A program made the position numbers and the translations under genes. Under the pieces are notes generated by a model, which saw only the letters and a list, made by a program, of their open reading frames with translations, did not search any database and was not told the origin of the DNA. Of a stretch of 64,000 nucleotides of DNA, positions 48,393 through 64,000 are shown one piece after another (position 1 is the first letter of the stretch; every line of letters starts with the position of its first letter). The stretch is from NCBI GenBank assembly GCA_008273105.1, contig GCA_008273105.1_4080.1, one strand, 5' to 3'. The stretch comes from a phage.

Positions 48393-48402
48393 AGTATTCT
48401 CT

Positions 48403-48588: not shown

Positions 48589-48640
48589 TATAATGTAATT
48601 AGCCTTACTATATTAAAGTACTCGGTCCCTGGTGTACCTT

Positions 48641-49037: not shown

Positions 49038-49038
49038 A

Positions 49039-49520: not shown

Positions 49521-49539
49521 GGGTTTTCTTTATGGGGTA

Positions 49540-49568
49540 AATATGATATAATGAATAAGGAGGGATTT
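49540..49568 (+). promoter_or_regulatory. promoter -10 (TATAAT) and SD of first leader-tagged cassette
   Basis: aaatatgatataatgaataaggaggg then ATG at 49569; no good -35. Confidence 0.5.
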
Positions 49569-50678
49569 ATGTTACCTTTTGGAAGAATGTTAAAGTATGG
49601 GAATGTAGCACCTGTACCCAAAAAAATAAAGAAAGTTATTGCAGGATATGATAATTTATATGTACTATATGGTGATGGATCGCTATATGGTTGTGGAATC
49701 AATAACTATCAACAGTTAAATATTACTGGAACTACTACACAAAATAAATGGGTACTGATTACAAATGGCGTTAATAATGCATGGGCTGGTGGATATAATA
49801 TTTTATATTTTAAAGAAGATAAATTTATAATGCACGGAACTAATGTCTCATTAGGTTTAGGAAATAATACAATTCCACTAGGTGGAGTAGATGTAACTTC
49901 TTCATTTCCAGATATATCTGATATTAAAATGATATCCATTGGTTTTGATTCAATGCACTATGTTAGTGCTGATGGTAAAATTGTATATGGAAGAGGTATG
50001 AACACAAATGGTTCTGTTGGTTCAGGTAGTACTTACTCACAGAGTACTTTTACTTCAGTACTGAATAATGGCACTAATCAGGTTATTGATATATTTGGTA
50101 ACGTTAATAATACAGTGCTTCTAACGTCAAATGGCGAGCTTCGTGCGTGTGGTACAAGTGCTTATGGTTCCATAGGAAATGAAACTGGTAAGTGGACATC
50201 GTTTGGTTTAAAATTATCTGGCACTAAAATAATGGGTGGTAATGCGTATAGTACGCTTGCATATACAAATGCGGGAATGTACCACACAGGGTGGCAGTTA
50301 AATGGGGAACTGGGAAATGGTTTAGATACTAACGTACAGGTATATCCATTTCAATTTAACTCTAAAACAATAGATAGCAAGATAGATAAAATTGCTAAAT
50401 CATCATCTGGGTCATATGTTAATATGTACTCAACAACAGAAGGAAAGATATATACTACAGGTGCATATGGTAAAAACGGCTCAACTACTGCATTGAATTT
50501 GTTCACCAATACACTAACACTTGAAAATTACAATCCAGATGCCGCAGCGTTGTATACGTGCACAAACTTCAGTGTTGTATATGATGGTAATGAAACTATT
50601 GCTGTAAGTGGTAGTCCTACATATGTACCAGGTGACGTTGCCGCAAATAGATGGACCACAATTCCATTACCCAAGTAA
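49569..50678 (+). CDS. MLPF-leader RCC1-like beta-propeller repeat protein 1
   Basis: Start MLPFGRMLKYGN after AAGGAGG; body has repeated G-x-L/V-Y-G-C/R-G-x-N-x-x-G-x-L/V/I-G-x-G units (YGCGINNYQQL, YGRGMNTNGSVGSG, ACGTSAYGSIGN). Confidence 0.75.
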   Translation: MLPFGRMLKYGNVAPVPKKIKKVIAGYDNLYVLYGDGSLYGCGINNYQQLNITGTTTQNKWVLITNGVNNAWAGGYNILYFKEDKFIMHGTNVSLGLGNNTIPLGGVDVTSSFPDISDIKMISIGFDSMHYVSADGKIVYGRGMNTNGSVGSGSTYSQSTFTSVLNNGTNQVIDIFGNVNNTVLLTSNGELRACGTSAYGSIGNETGKWTSFGLKLSGTKIMGGNAYSTLAYTNAGMYHTGWQLNGELGNGLDTNVQVYPFQFNSKTIDSKIDKIAKSSSGSYVNMYSTTEGKIYTTGAYGKNGSTTALNLFTNTLTLENYNPDAAALYTCTNFSVVYDGNETIAVSGSPTYVPGDVAANRWTTIPLPK

Positions 50679-50684
50679 TACGAT

Positions 50685-50714
50685 GCCAGTACTTGATACT
50701 GGCTTTCTTATTTG
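50685..50714 (+). terminator. intrinsic terminator (cassette boundary)
   Basis: gccagta cttga tactggc hairpin + tttcttatttg T-run. Confidence 0.65.
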
Positions 50715-50747
50715 TATTAAATATAGTATAATGATAAAGGAGGAACT
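50715..50747 (+). promoter_or_regulatory. cassette promoter -10 (TATAAT) and SD
   Basis: gtattaaatatagTATAATgataAAGGAGG; weak or absent -35. Confidence 0.5.
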
Positions 50748-51926
50748 ATGTTACCTTTTGGAAGAATGTTGAATTATGGAAATGAAGCACCGGGCGTACC
50801 AACACCAAAAGATTTCTTTTTGGATGTATCATCCGGCAAACCTACTATGTTGATGCTTTTGGATAACGGCGAAGTATGGGGTTGTAGTAATGATGGACAA
50901 CTATTAGGTTTAAACACTACCGCGTCAGCATACGGTAAGCCATACTTTGTTATGGAAAATGTTAAGTTAATGTTCGCGTCAGTGTGGGGGACATTACTTA
51001 TCACTAACGATAATAAAGTGAAGTACACTGGTAGACAAACCATGTTTAATGGTTCATCTAATTATTGGAGTACTTTTCAAGATTTTACAACGAAGTACAC
51101 GACTGTTGGTATTGACATAAGTACTATAGAAAAAGTTGGATTCAATACTGGTACATTATTCCTACGCACAACTAATGGTGATTTATGGGGTCATGGAAAT
51201 AACGCTAATGGTTATTTCGGAAAAGGAAATACCGTGGCGAATTACACACCAACCAAGATCAAGACTAATACATTAGATTTTTGGTTAACTAATGGGAATG
51301 CAATTGTACAAACTGGCCCTAAAGAATTCTATGCTACTGGTGATAATTATTATTATCAAATGGGTGTTACGACTACTGGTAATATAACAACATGGACACA
51401 GATTTTTAAGGACGCTACTGATGATCCTGAGTTTGAATATAATGCAATGCGAACAAGTCAAGCAACATTAATACTTTACGGTAAAGGAACTACATTCTAC
51501 GCAAGTGGGAGAAACTATATGAGTTCATGGGGTGTATCTGGAGCACCAGTGGATGTTAATACTACACTATATAAAGGTACGTTACCATTTGTACCCGGGG
51601 ATTTAACATATTTTTATGCTGGTCGAGAACAAGCATATTGGACTAACTTAATCATTGATACTAATGGAGTTCTGTACATATCTGGAACAAAAGATGGGGG
51701 TGGTGGTTCAAATGCACCTATATTTGAAGTATTACCAACCCCAAGTAGTGCAGTTGGATTCAAATGTGGTACAGCAACACGTTCTTATGCTATAATGGAT
51801 TGTACTGGCAATCAATTTATGTACGCACGTGGTACAGCTTTGTCAGACCCTGCTGGCTTTACACCAATGAGTACACCATTAAATCATACATGGACACACA
51901 TAACAGATTTTAAATTTAACCGATAA
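50748..51926 (+). CDS. MLPF-leader RCC1-like beta-propeller repeat protein 2
   Basis: MLPFGRMLNYGN leader; repeats of WGCSNDGQLLG / WGHGNNANGYFGKG type. Confidence 0.75.
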   Translation: MLPFGRMLNYGNEAPGVPTPKDFFLDVSSGKPTMLMLLDNGEVWGCSNDGQLLGLNTTASAYGKPYFVMENVKLMFASVWGTLLITNDNKVKYTGRQTMFNGSSNYWSTFQDFTTKYTTVGIDISTIEKVGFNTGTLFLRTTNGDLWGHGNNANGYFGKGNTVANYTPTKIKTNTLDFWLTNGNAIVQTGPKEFYATGDNYYYQMGVTTTGNITTWTQIFKDATDDPEFEYNAMRTSQATLILYGKGTTFYASGRNYMSSWGVSGAPVDVNTTLYKGTLPFVPGDLTYFYAGREQAYWTNLIIDTNGVLYISGTKDGGGGSNAPIFEVLPTPSSAVGFKCGTATRSYAIMDCTGNQFMYARGTALSDPAGFTPMSTPLNHTWTHITDFKFNR

Positions 51927-51932
51927 TATTAT

Positions 51933-51966
51933 GCCAGTACTTGATACTGGCATTTCTTTTTGTATT
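51933..51966 (+). terminator. intrinsic terminator (cassette boundary)
   Basis: gccagtacttgatactggc + atttctttttgtatt. Confidence 0.65.
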
Positions 51967-51997
51967 AAATATAATATAATGAATAAAGGAGGGAAAT
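51967..51997 (+). promoter_or_regulatory. cassette promoter -10 and SD
   Basis: aaatataatataatgaataAAGGAGGG. Confidence 0.5.
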
Positions 51998-53191
51998 ATG
52001 TTACCTTTTGCAAGAATGGTTAAATACGGGAATAAACAGCCTATTCCTGAACCAGTTGAGTTCACTGATGTTTTACAGCAACATTATACTAATGCTATGT
52101 ATCTACATAAGCCCACGAATACACTATACGGTTATGGTGGTAATAACTTGAGCCAATTAGGTCTAGGGAATCAATCGACAGTTTCTACTTTTACAGTACT
52201 GGCAACGCACTGTGCAGCCTTTTGGTTAGGCGTTCATGGATCATTGATGATTGACTTGGATAATAGAATATATTTCACAGGGAATACAGTAGCATTCCCC
52301 GATTATGGAGATGCAACTCCAGTTAATGGTTATTTTAGAACATGGACTGATGTTACTGCCGCATTTAACAAAATAAATATACACGCTAATTTAATCAAGA
52401 GTGTACATATAGGTGAAAGTACTAGAATATTACTACACGATGGAAGAGTCGTTGTTTGTGGTAAAAATGCAAATGCCGAATGTGGAACAGGTAACCAAAA
52501 TCCCATTCCAGTACTAACAGTTGTTACTGGTATGGGTGAAGTTTCTCAATTGGCGTGTTCATTACAGGGTACGCACTATCTCAAAACAAATAAAGAAGCA
52601 TGGTTTTGTGGTAAGGATAACTTTGGTGAAAGTGGTGGTGGGACTAGCTCATACGTTTTTACTAATAAATTAATACGAACCAACGTCGATTATATAAGTG
52701 CTACTTATGATGTTACCTGGTGGTTCACTGCCGGTAGGGTGTACTGGAGTGGTAGAAACAATTCTGGACAAGCTGGGAATGGTACTACTTCAACTACAAA
52801 CCAATTAACTACAGTTCAGAATTCACAGGTTATAGTGAATATTAGTGATGGTTTCCTGTGTCCTAGTAATATGGGTAACTCAACAATTGGTGCACCTATG
52901 GCTCAATACCCATCATATGTCAGGAGTGCAGGCATCAATACATATGGTCAAGAAGGGACGGGAAATACAACAGTAATTACTTCGTGGGGGGCGTTTTCTT
53001 TAAGTGCGATACAGGGTGGATATGACAATGTTCTTATGGCATCCAAAGACTGGTCCAGAACAATAATTATAACTAAAGATTATAAATTATATGCATGTGG
53101 GGGCTTTAACGGTTCAGGTGGTAACTTACCGGATGGTACTTCCTTAATTAAAACATTAACATTAATGCCAACGCAGTTATGGCAACAATAG
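51998..53191 (+). CDS. MLPF-leader RCC1-like beta-propeller repeat protein 3
   Basis: MLPFARMVKYGN leader; repeats YGYGGNNLSQLGLG, VCGKNANAECGTG, WSGRNNSGQAGNG. Confidence 0.75.
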   Translation: MLPFARMVKYGNKQPIPEPVEFTDVLQQHYTNAMYLHKPTNTLYGYGGNNLSQLGLGNQSTVSTFTVLATHCAAFWLGVHGSLMIDLDNRIYFTGNTVAFPDYGDATPVNGYFRTWTDVTAAFNKINIHANLIKSVHIGESTRILLHDGRVVVCGKNANAECGTGNQNPIPVLTVVTGMGEVSQLACSLQGTHYLKTNKEAWFCGKDNFGESGGGTSSYVFTNKLIRTNVDYISATYDVTWWFTAGRVYWSGRNNSGQAGNGTTSTTNQLTTVQNSQVIVNISDGFLCPSNMGNSTIGAPMAQYPSYVRSAGINTYGQEGTGNTTVITSWGAFSLSAIQGGYDNVLMASKDWSRTIIITKDYKLYACGGFNGSGGNLPDGTSLIKTLTLMPTQLWQQ

Positions 53192-53199
53192 GAGGGAAT

Positions 53200-54309
53200 A
53201 TGTTACCTTTTGGAAGAATGATTAGGTATGGAAATATTGTCCCTGGTCCTAAAAAAATAATTAAAGTTGGTGCTTCTACCCAAGGCCAATTCTTATTGAC
53301 TGATTCACATGATTTATATTACATAGGTAGAAATCAAGGTGGTGAATCTGGAAATGGTAATACCAACACGGTATCTTCATGGATATTAGTAAGTGCAGAT
53401 GTTTCTAATTTTTTCGTGGGTGATCGTACACTTGTTATTATTAAAAATGATAATACTATATGGACATCAGGTCAAACGTACTGGTTCTCATCTTCTACAA
53501 CTACTTCTTACAGTACTGTATTAGTTGAAAGGACTAGTTGGTTTACCAATGCTATACCAGTCAGTGAAATTGCTAATATTGTATGCACAAATGGTTTAAT
53601 ATTTGTACTTAGCACTAATTCAGTACTCTATGGTGCAGGAGATAATGGATATCGTGGTTCTTTGGGTATTGGTTCCTCATCAATTTACACATTAACTCAA
53701 TGTGCTACGAACGTTCGTAAAGTAATGACCAATGCGAATGATAGTATATATCTTACATTAGATAATAAGCTATATAGTTCTGGATGGAATAGTAGTGGGC
53801 AGCATGGTACGGGGAACCAAACACAAATTAACACTTGGGGATTGCGTAGTTCTGGTGTAATCGATGCAGCCATTGGTGGTAATGCATTAAATTACTATAA
53901 TGGTACATCATATTTCGTATGTGGTCAAACTCCAAACTTTCTTAGTTCAGGTACGACTACATTCCGTGCAGTTCCTTTAAGTACTTTGCCTAATAGTTCT
54001 CCGTTGTTTATGACGAATTCACCTGCCTTAAATACTGCTACACAAATGGTAATTACTAGTACATATCAGAAGGGTGTTGGGGCGAACCGTGGTTTGGGAT
54101 TAAACAATTCTCAAACTGGTGCTATATATAGTGCTACCAATTTACAATTACCCGTTGAAGTTAGTGAGATTAGGGATGTTCTTTTTAGTGATGGTTTGAC
54201 ATCGATATTAACCAAAAATGGAGATGTGTATAGTACTGGATCGTATTACGCCATTCCAGGTGCAATCGAGGATGTTGCAGTCTTTACTAAAATTGATTTA
54301 CCAAAATAA
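53200..54309 (+). CDS. MLPF-leader RCC1-like beta-propeller repeat protein 4
   Basis: Start MLPFGRMIRYGN 8 nt after stop of gene 3 (TAG overlaps AGGAGGG SD); no terminator/promoter cassette, so likely co-transcribed. Confidence 0.75.
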   Translation: MLPFGRMIRYGNIVPGPKKIIKVGASTQGQFLLTDSHDLYYIGRNQGGESGNGNTNTVSSWILVSADVSNFFVGDRTLVIIKNDNTIWTSGQTYWFSSSTTTSYSTVLVERTSWFTNAIPVSEIANIVCTNGLIFVLSTNSVLYGAGDNGYRGSLGIGSSSIYTLTQCATNVRKVMTNANDSIYLTLDNKLYSSGWNSSGQHGTGNQTQINTWGLRSSGVIDAAIGGNALNYYNGTSYFVCGQTPNFLSSGTTTFRAVPLSTLPNSSPLFMTNSPALNTATQMVITSTYQKGVGANRGLGLNNSQTGAIYSATNLQLPVEVSEIRDVLFSDGLTSILTKNGDVYSTGSYYAIPGAIEDVAVFTKIDLPK

Positions 54310-54315
54310 CATAAT

Positions 54316-54346
54316 GCCAGTACACTGTACTGGCTTTCTTATTTGT
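54316..54346 (+). terminator. intrinsic terminator (cassette boundary)
   Basis: gccagtac act gtactggc + tttcttatttg; loop differs from other copies, stem conserved. Confidence 0.65.
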
Positions 54347-54379
54347 ATTAAATATAGTATAACAAATAAAGGAGGGAAT
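54347..54379 (+). promoter_or_regulatory. cassette promoter -10 (TATAAC variant) and SD
   Basis: gtattaaatatagTATAACaaataAAGGAGGG. Confidence 0.45.
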
Positions 54380-55519
54380 ATGTTACCTTTTGCAAGAATG
54401 GTTAAGTACGGGAATATCGCACCTGAACTGATTCTACCTAAAAACAGGTTACAATGTTCTGCTGATGCCAAATTTTATTTACACACAAATGGCAATCTAT
54501 ATTGGTTTGGTTCTTCAGCATATGGACAAAGTGGTAATAGTTCATTGGACTCTTCAACTGAATGGACTCTTGTCAACTCAAATGTTACACGATATTGGGG
54601 TGGGGTACAAGGAACAATTGCTATAAAGAAAGATGGTACTATTTGGTACACTGGTAGACGTACTGTTATTCCAATACTATCTTCAAACACTAACGGCGTT
54701 TGGGTTGATATAACACAGAACTTTACTGATTTCGGTGTCAGTGCAGATGATATTGATAGTGTTGTGATATCTTCGTGTATGCGTGTATTTTTAAAAAATG
54801 GAAAGTGGTTCTACTGTGGTGCTGGTACTGGTGGTGTTTTTGGGAATGGATCAACTTCAAGCGTTTCACGATTCACCTATAGTACAATAGAAAATGTTAT
54901 CAGTGCTGGTTGTGCAATATATAGTACTGGATTAGTACTAAATGATGGTTCATATTGGTATGCAGGTAGAACGTTTGTATCAGGAACGACGACACAAAAC
55001 TTGCTCACATTTACACAAGATACTTCGATTAGTAATGCAATTAAAGCAGTCAATACAAATGAAACTTCTTATATATTTCTTAATGATGGTAATGTTAAAG
55101 TTGCATCTATTAACGACTATGGACAAGCAGGTACAGGAAATAGGTCAGTAGCCCCAATGAGTACATTAATTCCAAATTTATCATTCCAAGGAGAAGTGGA
55201 GTTGGTGGGTGAGCTTGGGACAAACCTTACCGGACCATCCTGTATAATTAATAATAATAATAAGTTATTTTCATGTGGCCTTAATTCAAATGGTCAATGT
55301 GGTATTGGTACAACTGATATGTATATAACATCATTCGCTGAAATGGATCTTACTGCATTAGAAGGTAGTAATCTTAGTAGTTTTTGTAAGAGCTATTCTT
55401 ATACGATGTTAGTTGACGAATATAATAATTTATACACATGTGGTGTACCCAATCTTACTGGAATGTCTTCAACTACTGTACCAACAAGGGTTCCTGATTC
55501 ACTTCTACCGTGGAAATAA
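54380..55519 (+). CDS. MLPF-leader RCC1-like beta-propeller repeat protein 5
   Basis: MLPFARMVKYGN leader; repeats WFGSSAYGQSGN, YCGAGTGGVFGNG, SCGLNSNGQCGIG. Confidence 0.75.
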   Translation: MLPFARMVKYGNIAPELILPKNRLQCSADAKFYLHTNGNLYWFGSSAYGQSGNSSLDSSTEWTLVNSNVTRYWGGVQGTIAIKKDGTIWYTGRRTVIPILSSNTNGVWVDITQNFTDFGVSADDIDSVVISSCMRVFLKNGKWFYCGAGTGGVFGNGSTSSVSRFTYSTIENVISAGCAIYSTGLVLNDGSYWYAGRTFVSGTTTQNLLTFTQDTSISNAIKAVNTNETSYIFLNDGNVKVASINDYGQAGTGNRSVAPMSTLIPNLSFQGEVELVGELGTNLTGPSCIINNNNKLFSCGLNSNGQCGIGTTDMYITSFAEMDLTALEGSNLSSFCKSYSYTMLVDEYNNLYTCGVPNLTGMSSTTVPTRVPDSLLPWK

Positions 55520-55525
55520 TATAAT

Positions 55526-55556
55526 GCCAGTACACTGTACTGGCTTTCTTATTTGT
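55526..55556 (+). terminator. intrinsic terminator (cassette boundary)
   Basis: gccagtacactgtactggc + T-run. Confidence 0.65.
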
Positions 55557-55590
55557 ATTAAATATAGTATAATGAATAAAGGAGGGAAAT
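55557..55590 (+). promoter_or_regulatory. cassette promoter -10 and SD
   Basis: attaaatatagTATAATgaataAAGGAGGG. Confidence 0.5.
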
Positions 55591-56739
55591 ATGTTACCTT
55601 TTGTAAGAATGATGAATTATGGGAATATTGCCCCTGGTAAGGATAGGCGTTTTAAAATATATTCAAGTGATTCTATGTATCTTCATGATACTTATACTAA
55701 TAAGTTGTATGCATCTTCTGCGACGAATTGGGGTACTGGAACAGGTGTAGCATCGAGTAAATTTATTCTTTGTGCAGAGAATGTTAAACGAGTTCTATTG
55801 GAAGATAACAGTAGTAGTTGTCAATTGTATGAAGAGAAAGGTACTGGAAAAGTTTTTATCACTGGTAACACGAAGGCATTCACTGGTGTAACTGATACAA
55901 AAACTTTGTGGACGGACTGTACTACGTGGATAACATCAGGTGGTATTAATGTTTCTGATATAAAATACATGAGTAGTTTTAATGATATGAAGGTGAATTT
56001 GATAACAAACGATGGTACGTTGTATTGTTGTGGAGTTAACAATAACTCGAACCTATCATCATTTGGTGATGGTACAAACATTAATTCTTTTAACACATTC
56101 AAAAGGGTAGATACTATAACTTCGGTTAAAAAGGCAGTTGGTAACATATACCTAAAAGAAGATAATACTTTATGGGGTTGTGGTTTTAACTATTACTATC
56201 AGTTAGGTACAGGTAATCAAACTTCTATTACTGGGGTGACGATGATTTCTTCGGATGTTATAGATTTTGATGTAAGTTATCAGAGTACATTTTTTATTAA
56301 ATCGGATAATAATTTGTACGCTTGTGGTAAACAGTTCGGTGCACAATACGGGAACGAATTTGGCACAGGTGGTACTTCTTCATCTACCGATATACAATAC
56401 AAAACTCCGACATTATTGAGTTCGGGAGTTTATACTCTATATACGTGTGTTAGTAACATGGCATCACATATAGCTAAAGGTGATGAAGTTCTATACGCAT
56501 CTGGGTCGAATGGATTTGGTCAATTAGGTGTTGGTAATAATATTAATCAGTACTCATATACTCCTTCGTATACTTCGTTTAATAGTTCGTGTAATTTGGT
56601 ACGCACTCCATCTGGTTCACTTATACTTACGGACACTGAGCAATTATATTATTGTGGGTATGCTATGGTAGTAATGGGGGGAATTGCTGGACAAAACATT
56701 CTTAGTTATACAGAAGTTGATATGTCATTTATACAATGA
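55591..56739 (+). CDS. MLPF-leader RCC1-like beta-propeller repeat protein 6
   Basis: MLPFVRMMNYGN leader; repeats YCCGVNNNSNLSSFGDG, WGCGFNYYYQLGTG, YASGSNGFGQLGVG. Confidence 0.75.
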   Translation: MLPFVRMMNYGNIAPGKDRRFKIYSSDSMYLHDTYTNKLYASSATNWGTGTGVASSKFILCAENVKRVLLEDNSSSCQLYEEKGTGKVFITGNTKAFTGVTDTKTLWTDCTTWITSGGINVSDIKYMSSFNDMKVNLITNDGTLYCCGVNNNSNLSSFGDGTNINSFNTFKRVDTITSVKKAVGNIYLKEDNTLWGCGFNYYYQLGTGNQTSITGVTMISSDVIDFDVSYQSTFFIKSDNNLYACGKQFGAQYGNEFGTGGTSSSTDIQYKTPTLLSSGVYTLYTCVSNMASHIAKGDEVLYASGSNGFGQLGVGNNINQYSYTPSYTSFNSSCNLVRTPSGSLILTDTEQLYYCGYAMVVMGGIAGQNILSYTEVDMSFIQ

Positions 56740-56745
56740 TTTAAT

Positions 56746-56776
56746 GCCAGTACAGAGTACTGGCTTTCTTATTTGT
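56746..56776 (+). terminator. intrinsic terminator (cassette boundary)
   Basis: gccagtac aga gtactggc + T-run. Confidence 0.65.
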
Positions 56777-56810
56777 ATTAAATATAGTATAATGAATAAA
56801 GGAGGAATTT
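56777..56810 (+). promoter_or_regulatory. cassette promoter -10 and SD
   Basis: attaaatatagTATAATgaataAAGGAGG. Confidence 0.5.
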
Positions 56811-58001
56811 ATGTTACCTTTTGTAAGAATGATGAATTATGGGAATATTGTCCCAGTACCACTTCAAATTAAGAAAATAATCCCAACTGATTTAGATGTT
56901 GTTGTTCTGTATACGGATGGTCAACTATATGCACGTGGGAATAATAGTTTTGGGAAATTTGGTAGGGGAAACAACACTGCATTAAAATCATGGACATTAA
57001 TTAGAGAAAACGTTAACGATTGCTGGGTTACACAAGGAACTTTATTAGTAAAAGATAATGACTCAAATTATTTTTATTGTGGATATGGTGATCATGTTGG
57101 TTTACCAACTAGTACTACTACGTTTTTAAGTTATAACCAATATATTGAAAATTTGTACACGCAAAGTTCAAGTACTTCAATTAAACAGATGTATGGAGGT
57201 ACTACGTGGTTTACGGTATTAATGGATAATAATACAATATGGAGTACTGGTTGGAGTGGGGCTAGACAATTCGCTGATGGTACTGGTAGTACTCAACAAA
57301 TAACAGATGGATCATTTGTAAAAGCTGTCACGCCTAATGTTGATATTGCACAAATACTGTCAACAAATAACTGTGTAATGTTTTTTGATACACAAAATAA
57401 TTTATATATTGGTGGTGGTACGTCAGGTATAAGTACCAGTACCACATGGACACCATTTAATGAATATACTTTATATAAACCAAGTACAACATACACAAAA
57501 ACGTTACAATACACTGGATGCTCAAGTGGTGCAGTCAGTGCTTTGGTTGAGAATCCAAGTACTGGTGCACGTCAGTTTCTAGTTGGTGGTTTAGCGAGTA
57601 ATGGTGCATGGGGTAACAATACCACAACCAGTTCGGCAATTGCTGTATTAGGGAGCAATAGTACGACATTACCAACTGGAACTTTGTATTCAATTCATAC
57701 AGGATACCCAACACAATCTAGTATACTAGTTACGAGTACTGGTGTATATGCAACTGGTTTAAATGCGAGTAGTTATGCTGGTTCGTTGGGTGTTGGTTCT
57801 AATGTTACTATTGGTAGATTTACTATATGTCCAATGCCAGCAGAAATATCATATTCTATGTATGATAAAATAAAAATATATCGCGGTTCGTATCGTACTT
57901 TTCTAACTGCTGATATGAAAAATATATATTCAACCGGAACGTATGATGATGGTGGTCCTAGTACAAATAGATATGTTCTGGATACACCTAGACAATTGTA
58001 A
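56811..58001 (+). CDS. MLPF-leader repeat protein 7 (RCC1-like, more divergent)
   Basis: MLPFVRMMNYGN leader; YARGNNSFGKFGRG and Gly/Thr-rich repeats. Confidence 0.7.
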   Translation: MLPFVRMMNYGNIVPVPLQIKKIIPTDLDVVVLYTDGQLYARGNNSFGKFGRGNNTALKSWTLIRENVNDCWVTQGTLLVKDNDSNYFYCGYGDHVGLPTSTTTFLSYNQYIENLYTQSSSTSIKQMYGGTTWFTVLMDNNTIWSTGWSGARQFADGTGSTQQITDGSFVKAVTPNVDIAQILSTNNCVMFFDTQNNLYIGGGTSGISTSTTWTPFNEYTLYKPSTTYTKTLQYTGCSSGAVSALVENPSTGARQFLVGGLASNGAWGNNTTTSSAIAVLGSNSTTLPTGTLYSIHTGYPTQSSILVTSTGVYATGLNASSYAGSLGVGSNVTIGRFTICPMPAEISYSMYDKIKIYRGSYRTFLTADMKNIYSTGTYDDGGPSTNRYVLDTPRQL

Positions 58002-58008
58002 TAATTTA

Positions 58009-58039
58009 GCCAGTACAAAGTACTGGCTTTCTTATTTGT
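58009..58039 (+). terminator. intrinsic terminator (cassette boundary)
   Basis: gccagtac aaa gtactggc + tttcttatttg. Confidence 0.65.
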
Positions 58040-58072
58040 ATTAAATATAGTATAATGAATAAAGGAGGAAGT
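58040..58072 (+). promoter_or_regulatory. cassette promoter -10 and SD
   Basis: attaaatatagTATAATgaataAAGGAGG. Confidence 0.5.
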
Positions 58073-59206
58073 ATGTTACCTTTTGGAAGAATGGTTAAGT
58101 ACGGAAATAAAAGACCATCTAATAATATCAAAAAGATTTCATGCACAACCAATAACAGTGTTTTGGTGCTCACCGAAAGTGGAGATTTGTATGGTTTTGG
58201 ATTCAATTCAGGTGGTGAACTTGGCACTGGTGCAACAACTAGTGTTACTTCAGTTATTCAAATTGACACTGGAGTTGATGATGTATGGGGTGGCAGTCTA
58301 TGTGCAATGTACAGAAAAGGCGATGAATTCTTTGGTAGCGGGAACGGTTCTTATTATGGTTCAAGTACTGTTAACTCAACCACATTTGTAAATGTAACAC
58401 ACATATTCCAAGATATAGATATTCTTAATATTAAGAAAATTAAAATGACAACAGGTTTGTTTATATTAATGCAAAACGGCAACTTATATGGATGTGGGGT
58501 AAACACCAATTGTCAATTTGGTACTGGTGAGGCAGGGAATTTTCGTTATCCTATAGCTACATTAACACAAACGGATGTTGTTGATTTTGATATTTTAGGA
58601 AACGCTAGTATAATATTAAAGACCGATGGGTACATGTACAGTGCGGGTGATAATGGTCGTGGACAACTTGGTAGTGCTGCCGCAACCACAGTTCTGGTAT
58701 ATACACAAATTAGTAAATTTCCAAATGTAACCAATTTGAATCTGTTCGGATGCACACAATCCTGTTCATTATTCAAAGATAGTGATGGTAAAACGTGGTT
58801 GAGTGGTAATAGTTATGGTATTGATTACCCAGTAGTAGCTACAACATTATTCAGTAAAGAAGCACCAGTACCTGAAGGTACATTTAGATTTATCCACACG
58901 AGATCAGGGGCAAATTCACCAGTAATATGTACACCCACTGGGTATTATGTTGCTGGTACTAACCCTTATGGTGCATATGGTATAGGTACAAATGTAACTC
59001 TGACTGCATACACTAGAATGGATTCAATGGATAATTACATATCAAATTATAATGATGTTCCTGTGTTTGATGGTTGTTTCTATGGGACATATTTTGCAGT
59101 CGGAGAACGTCTGTTTGGTGCAGGTAATGGAAATTTAGGTAATGTTCCAGGATATACTGGAACACAACGTAACTATGTAGAAATTAATTATAAAAATAAA
59201 CCTTAA
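58073..59206 (+). CDS. MLPF-leader RCC1-like beta-propeller repeat protein 8
   Basis: MLPFGRMVKYGN leader; repeats YGFGFNSGGELGTG, YGCGVNTNCQFGTG, YSAGDNGRGQLG. Confidence 0.75.
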   Translation: MLPFGRMVKYGNKRPSNNIKKISCTTNNSVLVLTESGDLYGFGFNSGGELGTGATTSVTSVIQIDTGVDDVWGGSLCAMYRKGDEFFGSGNGSYYGSSTVNSTTFVNVTHIFQDIDILNIKKIKMTTGLFILMQNGNLYGCGVNTNCQFGTGEAGNFRYPIATLTQTDVVDFDILGNASIILKTDGYMYSAGDNGRGQLGSAAATTVLVYTQISKFPNVTNLNLFGCTQSCSLFKDSDGKTWLSGNSYGIDYPVVATTLFSKEAPVPEGTFRFIHTRSGANSPVICTPTGYYVAGTNPYGAYGIGTNVTLTAYTRMDSMDNYISNYNDVPVFDGCFYGTYFAVGERLFGAGNGNLGNVPGYTGTQRNYVEINYKNKP

Positions 59207-59212
59207 TACAAT

Positions 59213-59243
59213 GCCAGTACTTGATACTGGCTTTTCTTTTTGG
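59213..59243 (+). terminator. intrinsic terminator (cassette boundary)
   Basis: gccagtacttgatactggc + ttttctttttg. Confidence 0.65.
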
Positions 59244-59276
59244 TTAAATATAGTATAATGAATAAAGGAGGGAATT
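59244..59276 (+). promoter_or_regulatory. cassette promoter -10 and SD
   Basis: gttaaatatagTATAATgaataAAGGAGGG. Confidence 0.5.
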
Positions 59277-60014
59277 ATGTTACCTTTTGCAAGAATGGTT
59301 AAGTTCGGGAATAAAATTGAATATAAGCCACATGGTGAACAATTAATCACGACAATAGGAACAACACAATTTACAGTTCCTGCTGGCGTTACCGAAATAT
59401 CAGTATGTGTTATTTCGCCGGGTGGTCAACGTGGTGCTGGTGGCGGCTTATCGTGGCGTAATAATATTCCGGTTTCTGGTGGTGAGTACTTAAGTGTTTC
59501 TCTTACACATCCCAACACTACTACAGCAGTTGAAAACGGTTTATATCGTGGAACTGAAAAACTATGTGTTAGCTTCACTGGTGAATATAGGGTTGGTGGA
59601 CTAGGTGGGAAAGCTGCTAACGCTATTAATGATGGTGGTGGTAATGGGGGCAACGCTGGTGTAAGTGGTGGTGCAGTCATTGGTGGTGGTGCTGGTGGCT
59701 ACACTGGTAAAGGTGGTAACGGAGATGCAATCACTGGTGAAAATGGTGCTGGCGGCGGCGGTGGTGGTGGTGCATTCTATAATACCTCGTTCATTGGTAC
59801 GGGTGGTGGTACTGGTATCATTGTTCAAGGTGCTAATGGTATTGGCGGTAGATACGATGGTTCATATAATGGTGGTGCTGGTAGTGGTGGTGCTGGTAAG
59901 ATGTATGGTGGTGGTGGTAGTATATGGGATAATTTTTCTTATACGGCTGCTGGTGGTGGTGCTGTGCGAATAATATGGGGACGTGGGAGATATTATCCTA
60001 ACAATTCAGTCTAA
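59277..60014 (+). CDS. MLPF-leader glycine-rich protein (non-RCC1 cargo)
   Basis: Same leader MLPFARMVKFGN fused to a Gly-rich body (GGGNGGNAGVSGG, GAGGGGGGGAF, GGAGSGGAG) unrelated to the propeller paralogs. Confidence 0.7.
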   Translation: MLPFARMVKFGNKIEYKPHGEQLITTIGTTQFTVPAGVTEISVCVISPGGQRGAGGGLSWRNNIPVSGGEYLSVSLTHPNTTTAVENGLYRGTEKLCVSFTGEYRVGGLGGKAANAINDGGGNGGNAGVSGGAVIGGGAGGYTGKGGNGDAITGENGAGGGGGGGAFYNTSFIGTGGGTGIIVQGANGIGGRYDGSYNGGAGSGGAGKMYGGGGSIWDNFSYTAAGGGAVRIIWGRGRYYPNNSV

Positions 60015-60021
60015 AATATAG

Positions 60022-60052
60022 GCCAGTACTTGATACTGGCTTTCTTATTTGT
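60022..60052 (+). terminator. intrinsic terminator (cassette boundary)
   Basis: gccagtacttgatactggc + tttcttatttg. Confidence 0.65.
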
Positions 60053-60085
60053 ATTAAATATAGTATAATGAATAAGGAGGGAATT
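60053..60085 (+). promoter_or_regulatory. cassette promoter -10 and SD
   Basis: attaaatatagTATAATgaatAAGGAGGG. Confidence 0.5.
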
Positions 60086-61228
60086 ATGTTACCTTTTGGA
60101 AGAATGGTTAAGTACGGGAATATTGCACCAGTTCCGGTAGTTCCTACAATAAAAGATTTTAAGATTGGCTTTTCGCATGAAGTGTTATTGGACAGTGCAG
60201 GTGATGCATGGGGTATTGGATACAATACAGATGGGCAGTTAGGCTTTTTGGATGCAAATACCAATTCACTAGGTGCGTGGTCTAAGATATATACTGATGT
60301 TCGATTAATTGGAGTTACTGCTAGATATACAGTGGTAGTTACTAATAATAATAGAATCCTTTACGCAGGAAATAACTTAATTTCTAGTACTACTACTCTT
60401 GGGTGGACCGATATAACTGCCAGTATGGGTCCGGTTGCGGTGGATAGCATCGATGCATTATATTGCACAGATGGTATGATGCATATTAAAACTTCAGATG
60501 GTTCTTTATATGCATATGGTCGTAACATGAACGCAAACAGTGGTGTTACTGGTGGTGTTATTAGTGTTGCAACTAAGGTTAATTTGCCTTCTGCTGTAAA
60601 TGACATGCGATATACGTTTAGTTATGGTTCAGTACTATGTCGATTGGATACGACTTCTATATACGCATGGGGACGAAACACAAATGGTGAATTAGGCCAG
60701 GGTAATACAACAGCTATCGTTACACCAAAACTATTGTCTGGTGCTTCTATTGCAATGGGTACTTCGTATAATGCTACTGCAATTGTTTCTGGTTCTGCAT
60801 CGTTAGTTACGTGTGGTGGTCAGAACAGTGGTCAGTTGGGTAATGGTATTACTACTGATGGTAATGTTTACGTATATGCTGCTAGAACATACCCTGGCGA
60901 TCTTAATACTATAAGAAGTCCAGTGGATTGTAGTACAACGTACACCTCTGCATTTATGAGTCCAGATGGTATATATTACACTGGTGCTAACCGAAGCATG
61001 TTTGGTGGTATTAGTGGTGCTGCTACCGTTGGTGTATATACTAAATGTAGTGATTTACCAATAACATATTCTAATATAATTCAGTGGGGTAGTGGTACTA
61101 TTGGTGGTGCTATATGTAGTAGTACAGAGTTATACCAATGTGGCATCGGTCGATACATTGCTGGAGATGGTGCGAGCACAACCAGGTATGGATTTAGGAA
61201 GACCCCATTACCTTGGGATGTTTATTGA
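60086..61228 (+). CDS. MLPF-leader RCC1-like beta-propeller repeat protein 10
   Basis: MLPFGRMVKYGN leader; repeats WGIGYNTDGQLG, YAYGRNMNANSG, WGRNTNGELGQG, CGGQNSGQLGNG. Confidence 0.75.
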   Translation: MLPFGRMVKYGNIAPVPVVPTIKDFKIGFSHEVLLDSAGDAWGIGYNTDGQLGFLDANTNSLGAWSKIYTDVRLIGVTARYTVVVTNNNRILYAGNNLISSTTTLGWTDITASMGPVAVDSIDALYCTDGMMHIKTSDGSLYAYGRNMNANSGVTGGVISVATKVNLPSAVNDMRYTFSYGSVLCRLDTTSIYAWGRNTNGELGQGNTTAIVTPKLLSGASIAMGTSYNATAIVSGSASLVTCGGQNSGQLGNGITTDGNVYVYAARTYPGDLNTIRSPVDCSTTYTSAFMSPDGIYYTGANRSMFGGISGAATVGVYTKCSDLPITYSNIIQWGSGTIGGAICSSTELYQCGIGRYIAGDGASTTRYGFRKTPLPWDVY

Positions 61229-61234
61229 AATAAT

Positions 61235-61268
61235 GCCAGTACTCAAGTACTGGCATTTCTTTTTGATT
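61235..61268 (+). terminator. intrinsic terminator (cassette boundary)
   Basis: gccagtac tcaa gtactggc + atttctttttg. Confidence 0.65.
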
Positions 61269-61299
61269 AAATATAGTATAATGAATAAAGGAGGGAAGT
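61269..61299 (+). promoter_or_regulatory. cassette promoter -10 and SD
   Basis: attaaatatagTATAATgaataAAGGAGGG. Confidence 0.5.
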
Positions 61300-62475: not shown

Positions 62476-62483
62476 GAGTGAAT

Positions 62484-63626: not shown

Positions 63627-63636
63627 AGGAGGGAAT

Positions 63637-64000
63637 ATGTTACCTTTTGGAAGAATGTTAAAGTACGGAAATATTAAACCAACTCTTCCTGAAATAAAGA
63701 AATTGGATGGTAGTCAATTACATGTCGGATTACTTTATAGTACAGGGAATATGTACATGCGTGGTTCTGGTTCGAACTATAAATTAGGTACAGGGGATGC
63801 TAGTGATGTATTCGGTGGTTGGGTACATGTACCCTATGAAGTTGATGATTTTTGGGCGTGTGTATCCGGTACATTAATAAAGACTGTTGATAATAAATTA
63901 TATTGTGCAGGTCTATACATGGGTGGATATTTTGGGGCTAGTGGTTCATATGTTAACTGGACTGAAGTAACTTCATTATTTGTAGGTATTGACGTGTCGC
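63637..64000 (+). CDS. MLPF-leader RCC1-like repeat protein 13 (3' end beyond window)
   Basis: Start MLPFGRMLKYGN 10 nt after stop of gene 12 with AAGGAGGG SD; frame open to window end. Confidence 0.7.
   Translation, partial: MLPFGRMLKYGNIKPTLPEIKKLDGSQLHVGLLYSTGNMYMRGSGSNYKLGTGDASDVFGGWVHVPYEVDDFWACVSGTLIKTVDNKLYCAGLYMGGYFGASGSYVNWTEVTSLFVGIDVS

What the first reader, a model, noticed from the sequence alone, without database searches (positions are those of the whole stretch)
50679..61299. Conserved terminator-promoter-SD boundary cassette, with variable hairpin loop on a fixed stem
Nine of the ten sampled gene boundaries carry the same element of about 65 bp: GCCAGTA(C)-loop-(G)TACTGGC hairpin, T-run (tttcttatttg), taaatatagTATAAT, AAGGAGG, ATG. 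The stem is invariant while the loop varies (cttga, act, aga, aaa, tcaa), which indicates selection on the structure. Each propeller gene is thus an insulated monocistronic unit. The identical boundaries (plus about 40 nt of identical leader codons) also give about 110 bp of homology flanking every cassette, an obvious substrate for recombinational shuffling, gain and loss. The -10 is consensus but there is no recognisable -35, so an activator or alternative sigma may be required (middle or late timing).
Basis: seen in the sequence. Interest (0 to 1): 0.6.

Follow-up and report, generated by a model that had tools for sequence, protein, structure and literature searches.

The report
Shuffling cassette boundaries in jumbo phage
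A roughly 105-base terminator, promoter, ribosome-site and leader unit separates most genes in a tandem array of virion propeller proteins of a jumbo E. coli phage, and comparison with related phages shows that whole genes are swapped, gained and lost by recombination within this repeated unit.

Summary
Nine of the ten boundaries in 50679-61299 carry the same unit: hairpin GCCAGTA(C)-loop-(G)TACTGGC, T-run, TTAAATA-N3-TATAAT, AAGGAGG, and ATG with about 39 conserved leader bases.

The window is an Asteriusvirus-type jumbo coliphage (PBECO4/121Q group). The genes are RCC1-like propellers; their relatives were detected in phAPEC6 virions by mass spectrometry.

- **Distribution:** in a complete 352-kb relative, both the hairpin and the promoter-like motif occur only in this array.
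- **Conservation:** boundaries are about 90% identical, while gene bodies share 25% amino-acid identity.
- **Shuffling:** gene order differs strongly among phages that are 95-99% identical. 33 of 34 homology breakpoints fall inside the boundary/leader zone, including a one-gene indel flanked by 104-nt repeats.
- **Loops:** they change even at orthologous junctions, partly by inversion (AAA/TTT, TCAA/TTGA).
- **Stem:** the outer pair covaries, and most single changes give G-U wobbles in the + sense.
- **Promoter:** it fits the genus's T4-like late class, (A/C)TAAATA-N3-4-TATA, better than a sigma-70 -10.

Not every gene is insulated: three junctions in the window lack the hairpin. The closest known kind is the PeSL cassette of T4-like phages, and this is a late-promoter variant that extends into the coding leader. 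No transcript data exist.

The parts
50685..50786 (+). Boundary unit 1: hairpin 50685-50703 (loop CTTGA), T-run 50704-50716, TTAAATA 50717-50723, TATAAT 50727-50732, SD 50737-50743, ATG 50748 plus 13 leader codons (MLPFGRMLNYGN..)
51933..52036 (+). Boundary unit 2: hairpin 51933-51951 (loop CTTGA; the stem can extend to ATGCC..GGCAT), T-run ATTTCTTTTTG, TTAAATA 51965-51971, TATAAT 51975-51980, SD 51986-51992, ATG 51998 plus leader
53179..53238 (+). Hairpin-less coupled junction (..caacaaTAGgagggaatATG) followed by the same leader. This is the one boundary of the ten without the unit, and it is conserved in all relatives
54316..54418 (+). Boundary unit 3: hairpin 54316-54334 (loop ACT), T-run, TTAAATA 54348-54354, box TATAAC 54358-54363 (the sigma-70 -7 T is lost), SD 54369-54375, ATG 54380 plus leader
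55526..55629 (+). Boundary unit 4: hairpin 55526-55544 (loop ACT), T-run, TTAAATA 55558-55564, TATAAT 55568-55573, SD 55579-55585, ATG 55591 plus leader
56746..56849 (+). Boundary unit 5: hairpin 56746-56764 (loop AGA; ACT at the same junction in E9.1), T-run, TTAAATA 56778-56784, TATAAT 56788-56793, SD, ATG 56811 plus leader
58009..58112 (+). Boundary unit 6: hairpin 58009-58027 (loop AAA; TTT at the same junction in E9.1), T-run, TTAAATA 58041-58047, TATAAT 58051-58056, SD, ATG 58073 plus leader. Left copy of the 104-nt direct repeat that flanks the one-cassette indel (gene 58073-59206 is absent from E9.1, 121Q and phAPEC6)
59213..59316 (+). Boundary unit 7: hairpin 59213-59231 (loop CTTGA), T-run TTTTCTTTTTGG, TTAAATA 59244-59250, TATAAT 59254-59259, SD, ATG 59277 plus leader. 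Right copy of the 104-nt repeat. The downstream gene 59277-60014 is a glycine-rich non-RCC1 protein with the same leader
60021..60124 (+). Boundary unit 8: hairpin 60021-60040 (loop CTTGA), T-run, TTAAATA 60054-60060, TATAAT 60064-60069, SD 60074-60080, ATG 60086 plus leader
61235..61338 (+). Boundary unit 9: hairpin 61235-61254 (loop TCAA; TTGA at the same junction in E9.1; the stem extends to AATGCC..GGCATT, 11 pairs), T-run ATTTCTTTTTGA, TTAAATA 61267-61273, TATAAT 61277-61282, SD, ATG 61300 plus leader
49521..49607 (+). Head of the array: no hairpin, but GTAAATA-TGA-TATAAT, SD and ATG 49569 with the same leader. It faces the divergent minus-strand early genes
62466..62522 (+). Hairpin-less coupled junction (..ccagaaTAGgagtgaatATG) plus leader. 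Left end of a second cassette indel (gene 62484-63626 is absent from E9.1), flanked only by about 50 nt of SD plus leader homology
63600..63675 (+). Junction with a promoter remnant (TTAAATATAATATAA, where the stop codon lies inside it) and SD but no hairpin, then ATG 63637 plus leader

Best explanation
The window comes from an Asteriusvirus-type jumbo coliphage. Its + strand array encodes diverged RCC1-like beta-propeller proteins, plus one glycine-rich protein. All of them share an N-terminal peptide, MLPF.RM..YGN.

Most genes are separated by a composite unit of about 105 nt that does three things.

1. **Termination (inferred from anatomy).** The GC-rich 7-11 bp hairpin sits 6-7 nt after the stop codon and is followed by a U-rich run. 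It acts as an intrinsic terminator and a protective 3' hairpin for the upstream mRNA. Termination is probably incomplete.

2. **Re-initiation (inferred).** Thirteen bases further on, [T/G/C]TAAATA-N3-TATAAT re-initiates transcription. This is most likely a T4-like late promoter that needs no -35 and is read with a phage late sigma. TATAAT would then be the start-site region, giving a leader of about 20 nt with a strong SD. On this reading most virion-associated propeller genes are their own late transcription units.

3. **Portable homology (shown by comparison of genomes).** The unit and the first 13 codons are kept nearly identical among paralogues whose bodies have diverged to 25% identity. 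They therefore serve as portable homology for the phage's recombination system. Crossovers anywhere within them delete, insert, replace and reorder whole expression-competent cassettes, within a genome and between co-infecting relatives. Gene conversion among the copies keeps them uniform.

The loops change fastest, partly by inversion across the perfect inverted repeat.
For: **Identity and context**
- Best matches are 96% to phages E9.1 and SHEFM2K, and 37 Asteriusvirus-type records match.
- RCC1-like domains are confirmed.
- phAPEC6 gp003, 005, 006, 007, 009 and 010 are array genes, and they were detected in virions (PMC7247149).

**Terminator**
- All nine hairpins are called terminator-like on the + strand.
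- Whole-boundary folds give -14.5 to -18.5 kcal/mol, with z-scores of -2.2 to -3.6.
- ARNold annotates the same hairpins at -10 to -12.8 kcal/mol in G17.
- The T-run is on the + strand only.
- Across 55 distinct hairpins, 90% of cells pair. The outer pair is GC 40 / AU 8 / GU 4, and the one-sided changes are mostly + sense wobbles, for example UG x8.
- The outer pairs covary again in Salmonella phage Munch (TGACAGTACT..AGTACTGTCA versus GGCCAGTAC..GTACTGGCC).

**Promoter class**
- (A/C)TAAATA is the most enriched upstream 7-mer in a complete relative (25 observed versus 1.1 expected).
- It precedes the major head, baseplate wedge and virion structural genes, often directly after a hairpin and T-run.
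- 18 of 42 such motifs are followed by TATA at +3 or +4, against 10.8% of controls (p = 3.6e-7). This is the same spacing as in the unit.
- TAAATA is intact in 104 of 104 hairpin boundaries. TATAAT is altered in 11 of 62 distinct versions, including changes at the sigma-70 -11 and -7 positions.
- In the main type TATAAT lies only 4-6 nt (5 in most copies) from AAGGAGG.

**Recombination**
- Family order differs in every genome compared.
- 33 of 34 homology-block ends fall within -75 to +70 of a leader ATG, a zone covering 13% of the array.
- There is a 104-nt repeat-flanked one-gene indel and a 50-nt repeat-flanked one.
- The same upstream gene is joined to up to six different downstream families.

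**Concerted evolution**
- Boundaries are 89.5% identical and leaders 87%, against 56% nt and 25% aa for the bodies.
- Families C, F, H and R carry EJP2-type boundaries in EJP2 and main-type boundaries elsewhere.
- The hairpin and the exact promoter motif occur only in the array of a 352-kb genome.
Against: - No transcript 5' or 3' ends exist for any Asteriusvirus in the literature I could search.
- TTAAATA and GTAAATA differ at the first base from the genus's (A/C)TAAATA. T at that position is not enriched elsewhere in the genome.
- The 16-mer TTAAATATA(A/G)TATAAT is conserved even in the distant phage Munch. TATAAT may therefore have a role of its own, such as a second, sigma-70-type promoter.
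- A gp55-like late sigma was not verified in this genus. A tblastn with a T4 gp55 sequence written from memory found nothing, so I rely on the report for the related phage CBB (PMC5259590).
- The main-type T-run is interrupted (UUUCUUAUUU), so terminator efficiency is unknown.
- The six core stem pairs hardly vary, so covariation support rests on one or two outer pairs and on wobbles. My rough count is about 9 independent + sense wobble events against about 4 A-C events, which is not significant.
- The CAGTAC/GTACTG core is invariant across genera. A plain terminator does not require that.
Confidence: 0.68

Rival explanations
1. The promoter is a sigma-70-type promoter that consists of a -10 only. 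TATAAT is the true -10, with the AT-rich TTAAATATAG acting as upstream enhancement. It would be read by host RNA polymerase with a phage activator or the phage's RpoD-like sigma, giving middle rather than late timing. The terminator and recombination parts are unchanged.
For: - TATAAT is a perfect -10 in 8 of 9 window copies and in 51 of 62 distinct versions.
- It is conserved in EJP2 and Munch.
- The phage's early promoters use GTATAATG as their -10, and the unit reads aGTATAATG.
- Group 2 jumbo phages encode an RpoD-like sigma (PMC11895373).
Against: - There is no -35 and no TGn extended -10 at the right spacing.
- The critical -7 T or -11 A is lost in copies that persist in front of four different genes in five phages (TATAAC), and also in TATAAA and TCTAAT.
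- The terminal cassette has no TATAAT at all, yet carries a canonical CTAAATA.
- With 4-6 nt between TATAAT and AAGGAGG, the mRNA would begin at or inside the SD.
- TATA at +3 or +4 is a general feature of the genus's late motifs.
Confidence: 0.22
2. The hairpin is mainly a sequence-specific DNA or RNA site rather than a terminator. Its invariant CAGTAC/GTACTG core belongs to the genome-wide over-represented word (C)AGTACT(G). A phage factor binding that word would regulate the cassettes or nucleate recombination at them.
For: - AGTACT occurs 919 times against about 119 expected in a 352-kb relative.
- In coding DNA it occurs 742 times against 215 +/- 12 after synonymous shuffling, and in all three frames.
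- The enrichment also holds in the EJP2 and Munch loci.
- The word sits next to the -10 and the -35 of early promoters.
- The hairpin core is invariant across three lineages while the outer pairs covary.
- Other late-gene terminators in the same genome use unrelated stems.
Against: - The spacing between the arms varies from 3 to 8 nt, which does not suit a rigid dimeric DNA binder.
- Two window hairpins (loop ACT) contain no intact AGTACT.
- The + strand-only T-run, the position right after stop codons and the + sense G-U wobbles are what a terminator predicts.
- Breakpoints are spread over the whole 105 nt and also occur at hairpin-less junctions. Recombination therefore does not need the hairpin.
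Confidence: 0.12
3. The array is essentially one long operon driven from its head. On this reading the hairpins are RNA processing or stability elements, and the promoter-like boxes are passive relics copied along with the duplicated genes.
For: - Three junctions in the window have no hairpin or promoter and must be co-transcribed.
- The main-type T-run is imperfect.
- No transcript data exclude read-through.
Against: - TAAATA is never lost in 104 boundaries and 62 distinct versions, whereas gene bodies diverged to 25% identity.
- The motif and its spacing are kept across genera although the surrounding 5' UTR changed.
- The same hairpin, T-run, TAAATA layout precedes unrelated structural genes.
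Confidence: 0.1
4. The boundaries are alike only because the genes duplicated recently. Under this view there is neither selection nor homogenisation, and the shuffling is incidental.
For: Tandem duplication is the accepted origin of such arrays (PMC7247149).
Against: - Paralogue bodies share 25% amino-acid and 56% nucleotide identity, against about 90% for boundaries.
- Boundary type follows the genome rather than the gene family.
- Breakpoints are concentrated in the boundaries (P about 1e-30).
Confidence: 0.02

Closest known systems
PeSL (promoter-early stem-loop) and PmSL cassettes of T4-like phages (Arbiol et al. 2010, PMC2839356; Comeau et al. 2014, PMC4122927)
   Same: - Both are short, conserved composites of a terminator stem-loop, a promoter, an SD and a start codon, repeated between neighbouring genes of a plastic region.
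- Insertions, deletions and replacements between close relatives have their junctions inside the element.
- In both, transcriptional self-sufficiency makes each gene a portable module.
- Homologous recombination by the phage's own machinery is the proposed mechanism.
   Different: - The promoter here has no -35 and fits a late (TAAATA) class, not a sigma-70 early or Mot-box middle class.
- The conserved unit continues about 39 nt into the coding sequence, as a shared N-terminal peptide.
- It flanks 1.2-kb paralogous virion-associated genes, not small ORFans.
- The stem arms are identical in all copies, and the unit is confined to one array rather than scattered through several hyperplastic regions.
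- The host genome is a 350-kb Asteriusvirus.
- Mini-circles were not tested.
Intrinsic (Rho-independent) terminators followed by T4-type late promoters (TATAAATA, gp55-dependent)
   Same: - A GC-rich hairpin plus U-run lies after the stop codon.
- A -10-like A/T octamer with no -35 lies upstream of virion genes.
- The same compact terminator, late-motif layout precedes head, baseplate and other structural genes of the same genus.
   Different: - The first base of the motif is T or G instead of A or C.
- The motif is fused to a conserved TATAAT.
- Dependence on a late sigma is untested.
Small hairpin-loop inversions flanked by inverted repeats (described for chloroplast non-coding DNA; cited from my own knowledge, not checked here)
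   Same: At the same junction in near-identical genomes, loops occur as reverse-complement pairs (AAA/TTT, TCAA/TTGA; also AGA/TCT and CTTGA/TCAAG across copies), with unchanged arms.
   Different: Here the hairpin is a regulatory element in a phage array. Copy-to-copy conversion also redistributes the loops.
Integron attC / gene-cassette systems
   Same: Both have arrays of single-gene cassettes separated by hairpin-forming imperfect palindromes, with cassette gain, loss and reordering.
   Different: - There is no integrase in or beside the array.
- Each cassette carries its own promoter.
- Junctions are spread over about 105 nt of homology and also occur at hairpin-less junctions. The exchange is therefore homologous, not site-specific.

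Membership tests
PeSL cassettes (T4-like phages) | Conserved intergenic composite of stem-loop, then promoter, then SD and start codon | tested here: met
   Nine copies in the window have this order of parts, and 104 copies occur in the relatives examined.
PeSL cassettes (T4-like phages) | The promoter is a sigma-70-like early promoter with -35 and -10 boxes about 17 nt apart (or a Mot box in PmSL) | tested here: not met
   There is no -35 at 16-18 nt (best 2-3 of 6), no TGCTT Mot box and no extended -10. The motif fits the late class.
PeSL cassettes (T4-like phages) | Indels, replacements and displacements between close relatives have junctions in or next to the elements | tested here: met
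   33 of 34 block ends lie in the boundary zone, and indels are flanked by 104-nt and 50-nt repeats. Family order differs in every genome.
PeSL cassettes (T4-like phages) | Recombination between neighbouring elements releases mini-circles | not testable with these tools
   This needs inverse PCR or long-read sequencing of infected cells.
PeSL cassettes (T4-like phages) | Scattered through hyperplastic regions of early, non-essential small ORFs | tested here: not met
   The unit is confined to one array of 1.2-kb virion-associated genes. All 12 hairpins and all 11 exact promoter motifs of a 352-kb relative lie in the array.
Intrinsic terminator | GC-rich stem of at least 5 bp, short loop, and a U-rich run directly downstream on the transcribed strand, located after a stop codon | tested here: met
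   The stem has 7-11 pairs with 4-5 GC. UUU or AUUU follows directly. The hairpin begins 6-7 nt after the stop.
Intrinsic terminator | RNA 3' ends at the U-run | not testable with these tools
   No transcriptome of this genus was found.
T4-type late promoter | A -10-like TATAAATA-type motif, without a -35, upstream of virion genes | tested here: inconclusive
   TAAATA is present in 104 of 104 boundaries, with the genus-typical TATA at +3. The proteins are in virions. However, the first base is T or G instead of A or C.
T4-type late promoter | A phage-encoded gp55-like sigma | tested here: inconclusive
   A tblastn with a remembered T4 gp55 sequence found nothing in the relative. A gp55-like protein is reported for the related phage CBB (PMC5259590).
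Sigma-70 promoter | TTGACA-like -35 located 16-18 nt upstream of a TATAAT-like -10, or a TGn extended -10 | tested here: not met
   The -10 is present in 8 of 9 copies. The -35 and TGn are absent.
Integron-type site-specific cassettes | An adjacent integrase and a fixed crossover point in the hairpin site | tested here: not met
   Only RCC1-type genes are in the array, and small early genes flank it. Crossover positions vary, and junctions also occur without a hairpin.

The most novel reading that the evidence does not exclude
The boundary unit may be more than a passive terminator-promoter. Its hairpin core, CAGTAC/GTACTG, stays invariant across genera while the outer pairs covary, and it belongs to a genome-wide system built on the palindromic word (C)AGTACT(G). 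That word occurs about 900 times per genome, is 3.5-fold above the synonymous-shuffle expectation in coding DNA, and flanks the -10 and -35 of early promoters. A phage factor or DNA modification that reads this word could time the switch from early genes to the virion-propeller cassettes, or target recombination to them. The array would then be a dedicated diversity-generating locus for virion surface proteins.
Probability: 0.12. Interest if true: 0.8.

Novelty: new variant of a known kind. Interest (0 to 1): 0.5.

Why it matters
This extends the PeSL idea beyond T4-like phages and early ORFans. In that idea, regulatory cassettes double as recombination sites. Here the cassettes are late, virion-associated genes of a jumbo phage, and the unit carries a shared N-terminal peptide.

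It explains how Asteriusvirus isolates that are otherwise 95-99% identical come to carry different sets and orders of RCC1-like propeller genes. These are candidate host-interaction or decoration proteins, so this bears on host range and on the choice of therapeutic phages.

It also gives concrete, testable late-promoter and terminator sequences for a genus with no transcript map. The unit is a natural design for swapping expression-ready modules.

Tried and rejected
- **Hairpin scan of IMG/VR:** It was uninformative.
- **22-mer promoter scan of IMG/VR:** it found only 121Q itself and one chance contig.
- **Metagenome scan:** it gave a few real array contigs (L136, L148, L191 and fragments) among chance hits.
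- **Rfam:** no family matched anywhere in the window.
- **Anti-SD idea:** in minimum-energy folds the U-run pairs with the SD in most copies. This could silence read-through RNA. However, the pairing is not kept in the EJP2 and Munch types (pure U-run, GGAG) and shows no covariation, so I left it as inconclusive.
- **Antisense promoter idea:** the 5' flank plus 5' arm (ATTATGCCAGTAC) is the reverse complement of the early-promoter module GTACTGGCATAAT. It is exact only at 51928-51940 and degenerate elsewhere, and there is no -35. I rejected it as a conserved function.
- **Strand test by wobble versus A-C changes:** the result favours + sense RNA but rests on too few independent events.
- **gp55 search:** a search with a sequence recalled from memory found nothing.
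- **CMSTMSU:** I excluded this record from the counts because its array is full of frameshifts and shortened homopolymers.
- **Integron-like and recent-duplication readings:** both rejected (see rival explanations and membership tests).

Full report
**What the window is.** Megablast of 50000-62000 finds 37 phage records, all jumbo E. coli or Salmonella myophages of the PBECO4/121Q/slurp01/G17 group (Asteriusvirus). The best matches are about 96% identical (E9.1, SHEFM2K) but cover only 68% of the query, in pieces. From 49569 to the window end, the + strand carries a tandem array of genes of about 1.2 kb, flanked on the left by minus-strand early-type genes. In complete relatives the array has 12-16 genes and is flanked by minus-strand genes on both sides. 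Pfam and PHROGs confirm RCC1-like propeller domains. The exception is gene 59277-60014, a glycine-rich protein with no Pfam match that starts with the same peptide.

**The observation.** Nine of the ten boundaries in 50679-61299 contain the described unit, in this order:
- a stop codon, then 6-7 nt;
- the hairpin GCCAGTA(C)-loop-(G)TACTGGC;
- a T-run of 12-13 nt;
- TTAAATA, three bases, then TATAAT (TATAAC at 54358);
- 4-6 nt, then AAGGAGG;
- 4-5 nt, then ATG TTA CCT TTT G.A AGA ATG.

The tenth boundary (53179-53200) is a tight stop/SD/ATG junction. Shuffles give no match to the 28-mer core, against 8 observed. The repeat finder recovers the families independently. Within the window, paired GCCAGTA/TACTGGC arms occur only in the array.

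**Distribution.** I assembled the unannotated complete genome of a relative, ECO103 4-12-1 (351,992 bp). In it the hairpin (one mismatch or fewer) occurs at 12 sites, and the exact 16-mer TTAAATATAGTATAAT at 11. All lie within the array at 328.6-345.2 kb. The unit is therefore array-specific, not a general signal of the phage. A blastn of one unit finds 4-16 copies in each of 37 Asteriusvirus-type records and a single weaker (74% identical) match in each of three Salmonella jumbo phages. A divergent version, TACCAGTAC-N6-8-GT(A/G)CTGGTA, U7-8, GTAAATAC-N3-TATAAT, GGAG, ATG, fills the array of phage EJP2 and also sits at one or two junctions of main-type phages. Salmonella phage Munch has a related array with MIPFARILTYGN leaders. 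Three of the seven junctions read there carry a hairpin, a T-run and TTAAATATA(A/G)TATAAT.

**The terminator part.** The consensus scan calls all nine window hairpins terminator-like on the + strand. Folding each whole boundary gives -14.5 to -18.5 kcal/mol with z-scores of -2.2 to -3.6, and the hairpin is always present in the centroid structure. The G17 GenBank record already labels the same hairpins as ARNold terminators at -10 to -12.8 kcal/mol. Because the stems are invariant in the window, they carry no covariation there. I therefore collected 160 leader-anchored boundaries from 18 sources; 116 have a hairpin, giving 55 distinct hairpin sequences after excluding one poor assembly. On these:
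- 90.3% of cells pair;
- the outer pair is GC 40 / AU 8 / GU 4 / other 3;
- the inner pairs show only one-sided changes, mostly + sense wobbles (UG x8, GU x2, UG x1), against 2-3 A-C or other mismatches.

In Munch, two outer pairs change on both sides while CAGTAC/GTACTG stays fixed. This supports a + sense RNA stem, but only modestly, because the number of independent events is small. The main-type U-run is interrupted (UUUCUUAUUU), so I expect partial read-through. Termination itself is inferred, not shown.

**The promoter part.** Several results point to the genus's late class rather than a sigma-70 -10.

1. In the complete relative, ATAAATA is the most enriched 7-mer upstream of genes outside the array (25 observed versus 1.1 expected), and CTAAATA is also enriched. 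This matches the late motif predicted for the related phages CBB and GAP32 (PMC5259590).
2. The motif precedes the major head, baseplate wedge and virion structural protein genes. It often follows a hairpin and T-run by 11-16 nt, the same geometry as in the unit.
3. 18 of 42 such motifs are followed by TATA starting 3-4 nt later, against 10.8% of control windows (Fisher p = 3.6e-7). The unit reads TAAATA-N3-TATAAT.
4. TAAATA is intact in all 104 hairpin boundaries (62 distinct downstream segments). TATAAT is changed in 11 of the 62. These changes include TATAAC, which persists in front of four different gene families in five phages, as well as TATAAA, TCTAAT and TATGAT. The terminal cassette has a canonical CTAAATA and no TATAAT at all.
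5. In the main type TATAAT ends 4-6 nt before AAGGAGG (5 nt in most copies). A sigma-70 start would therefore fall at or inside the SD. A start 5-9 nt after TAAATA gives a leader of about 20 nt.
6. Six array proteins of phAPEC6 (gp003, 005, 006, 007, 009, 010) were found in purified virions (PMC7247149; positions).

Against this reading, the base before TAAATA is T or G rather than A or C. The whole 16-mer, including TATAAT, is conserved as far as Munch, so a second sigma-70-type use of TATAAT cannot be excluded. No transcript map of this genus was found.

**The recombination part.** This is the best-supported claim.
- Within the window, the 66 nt before the ATG are 89.5% identical between copies and the first 39 coding nt are 87% identical. 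The gene bodies share 56% nucleotide identity (close to background) and 25% amino-acid identity.
The resulting orders differ in every genome (a dot marks a hairpin-less junction):
  - window: L M F.A N C B U D G J.V.E
  - E9.1: L M O.A N C B D G J.E
  - SHEFM2K: L M O.A N C B x G P.E
  - G17: x O.A K C S B D J.V.P.E
  - ECO103: C L H Q.W O.A x X B x G D I E
  - phAPEC6: W S A x.K B D G J P.I E
- In blastn of the window array against five relatives, every homology block begins at a stop codon or hairpin (-64 to -76 from an ATG), or at the SD of a hairpin-less junction. Every block ends 34-65 nt into the next leader. Of 34 ends, 33 lie in a zone that covers 13% of the array.
- Gene 58073-59206 is absent from E9.1, 121Q and phAPEC6. 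In the window it is flanked by 104-nt direct repeats (58009-58112 and 59213-59316) that collapse to a single copy in E9.1. The E9.1 glycine-rich gene carries the SD and codon-5 variant of the window's deleted gene, so the crossover lay inside the leader.
- Gene 62484-63626 is a second indel, flanked by only about 50 nt of SD plus leader.
- A given upstream gene is joined to up to six different downstream families.
- Boundary type follows the genome rather than the gene. Families C, F, H and R have EJP2-type boundaries in EJP2 and main-type boundaries elsewhere. The EJP2-type boundaries found inside main-type phages travel with particular cassettes.

Together these results indicate homologous exchange at variable points within the unit, conversion among copies, and exchange between phages. 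There is no integrase and no fixed crossover point.

**The loops.** Twelve of 21 orthologous boundary groups carry more than one loop. At junctions where every other base of the unit is identical, the loop is inverted:
- B-to-D has AAA in 121Q and phAPEC6 but TTT in E9.1;
- G-to-J has TCAA in the window but TTGA in E9.1.

Across all copies the repertoire contains further reverse-complement pairs, AGA/TCT and CTTGA/TCAAG. So 'variable loop on a fixed stem' largely reflects flip-flop across a perfect inverted repeat, one-base indels and copy-to-copy conversion. It is not in itself evidence of selection on the stem.

- Not every gene is insulated. F.A, J.V and V.E in the window are coupled junctions conserved across phages.
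- One cassette is not a propeller.
- The leader is under protein-level selection. The peptide M[LI]PF.[RK][IM]..YGN is kept in Munch with different codons. It is also homogenised at the DNA level within Asteriusvirus.

**Comparison with what is known.** The concept matches the PeSL cassettes of T4-like phages. Those are a stem-loop terminator plus promoter plus SD plus ATG that mediate modular shuffling, with crossovers mapped between the -10, the SD and the ATG, and with mini-circles demonstrated (PMC2839356; PMC4122927). The present unit meets the architectural and comparative criteria. It fails the defining promoter criterion (early sigma-70 with a -35), extends into the coding sequence, serves late virion-associated paralogues and is confined to one array.

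The RCC1 array itself is known, and tandem duplication was noted for it (PMC7247149). The hairpins are machine-annotated as terminators in some records. I found no description of the composite unit or of cassette shuffling in this genus. I therefore rate it a new variant of a known kind, of moderate interest.

**Unexplained.** The CAGTAC/GTACTG core of the stem is invariant across three lineages, although other late terminators of the same genome use unrelated stems. It is part of a genome-wide excess of AGTACT:
- 919 occurrences against about 119 expected;
- in coding DNA, 742 against 215 +/- 12 after synonymous shuffling, in all three frames;
- CAGTACTG is the commonest 8-mer of the genome;
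- the excess also holds in the EJP2 and Munch loci;
- the word sits beside the -10 and -35 of early promoters.

I could not find this described. It is the basis of the 'novel case'.

Noticed in passing
whole window (259 sites); complete relative OR844650.1 (L123-L130); L202; L203: The palindrome AGTACT is strongly over-represented. The window has 259 sites against about 22 expected. The 352-kb relative has 919 against about 119. In coding DNA the count is 742 against 215 +/- 12 after within-gene synonymous shuffling, and in all three frames. It is the only palindromic hexamer enriched in this way, and CAGTACTG is the commonest 8-mer of the genome. The excess also holds in the EJP2 and Munch loci. 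I found no literature on it, and its function is unknown.
   Followed up: partly
window 32731-32743(-), 36359-36371(-), 38696-38708(+), 41112-41124(+), 41240-41252(-); also 25673(-), 33524(-): Early promoters have the form TTGACA-N10-GTACTGGCATAAT. The 8-mer GTACTGGC in their spacer is identical to the 3' arm of the array hairpin. The hairpin's 5' flank plus 5' arm (ATTATGCCAGTAC) is the reverse complement of this -10 module, exact at 51928-51940. This may be a trace of the hairpin's origin.
   Followed up: partly
window 33524-33567 and 36359-36402: Two back-to-back -10 modules form a long imperfect palindrome, ATTAT(G/C)(C/A)CAGTAC-N18-GTACTG(T/G)(G/C)ATAAT. Only one side has a TTGACA. It resembles the array hairpin with an 18-nt 'loop'.
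   Followed up: no
window about 25200-25300(-) and 26420-26510(-); about 20 copies at 301-321 kb of OR844650.1: A second repeated regulatory cassette occurs in the early region: AAAAAGTACTTGCA-N16-GTATAATGTTTTACAT, followed at once by a GGGGAA..TTCCCC hairpin in the 5' leader. It is PeSL-like, but the stem-loop lies downstream of the promoter.
   Followed up: partly
window about 32680-32730(-), 38709-38760(+), 41125-41175(+), 41190-41239(-): Transcripts from the GTACTGGCATAAT promoters begin with a conserved segment, CACTAACCCA(y)AGGGTGCA, which contains an ACCC..GGGT hairpin. No ORF is obviously attached to it, so it could be a small RNA or a leader element.
   Followed up: no
window 45827-49466 (- strand): Immediately left of the propeller array lies a tandem array of about a dozen small paralogous genes (60-81 aa). 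Several of the orthologous small genes in the SHEFM2K record are annotated as PHROG 11711. The copy number differs between relatives.
   Followed up: no
window 59277-60014 (+): This is a glycine-rich 245-aa protein (PHROG 4474, no Pfam hit) with the same MLPFARMVKFGN leader and boundary unit as the propellers. The leader is therefore a portable N-terminal module, perhaps a virion-incorporation signal, and not part of the propeller fold.
   Followed up: partly
window boundaries, e.g. 50703-50743: In minimum-energy folds the pyrimidine T-run (CUUUCUU) pairs with the downstream SD (AAGGAGG). This could mask the ribosome site on read-through RNA but not on RNA started at the internal promoter. The pairing is not kept in the EJP2 and Munch types.
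   Followed up: partly
relatives: L001 28055-28260, L002 27380-27680, L131 20940-21230, L201 14200-14420 (beyond the window end): The array ends with a degenerate terminal cassette: hairpin GCCAGTGCCTTGTACTGGC (G-U wobble), a T-run, a canonical CTAAATA, no TATAAT, then a short ORF (44-74 aa) beginning MLPF(R/G)RIITS with synonymous codon changes. It appears to be a decaying copy that escaped homogenisation.
   Followed up: partly
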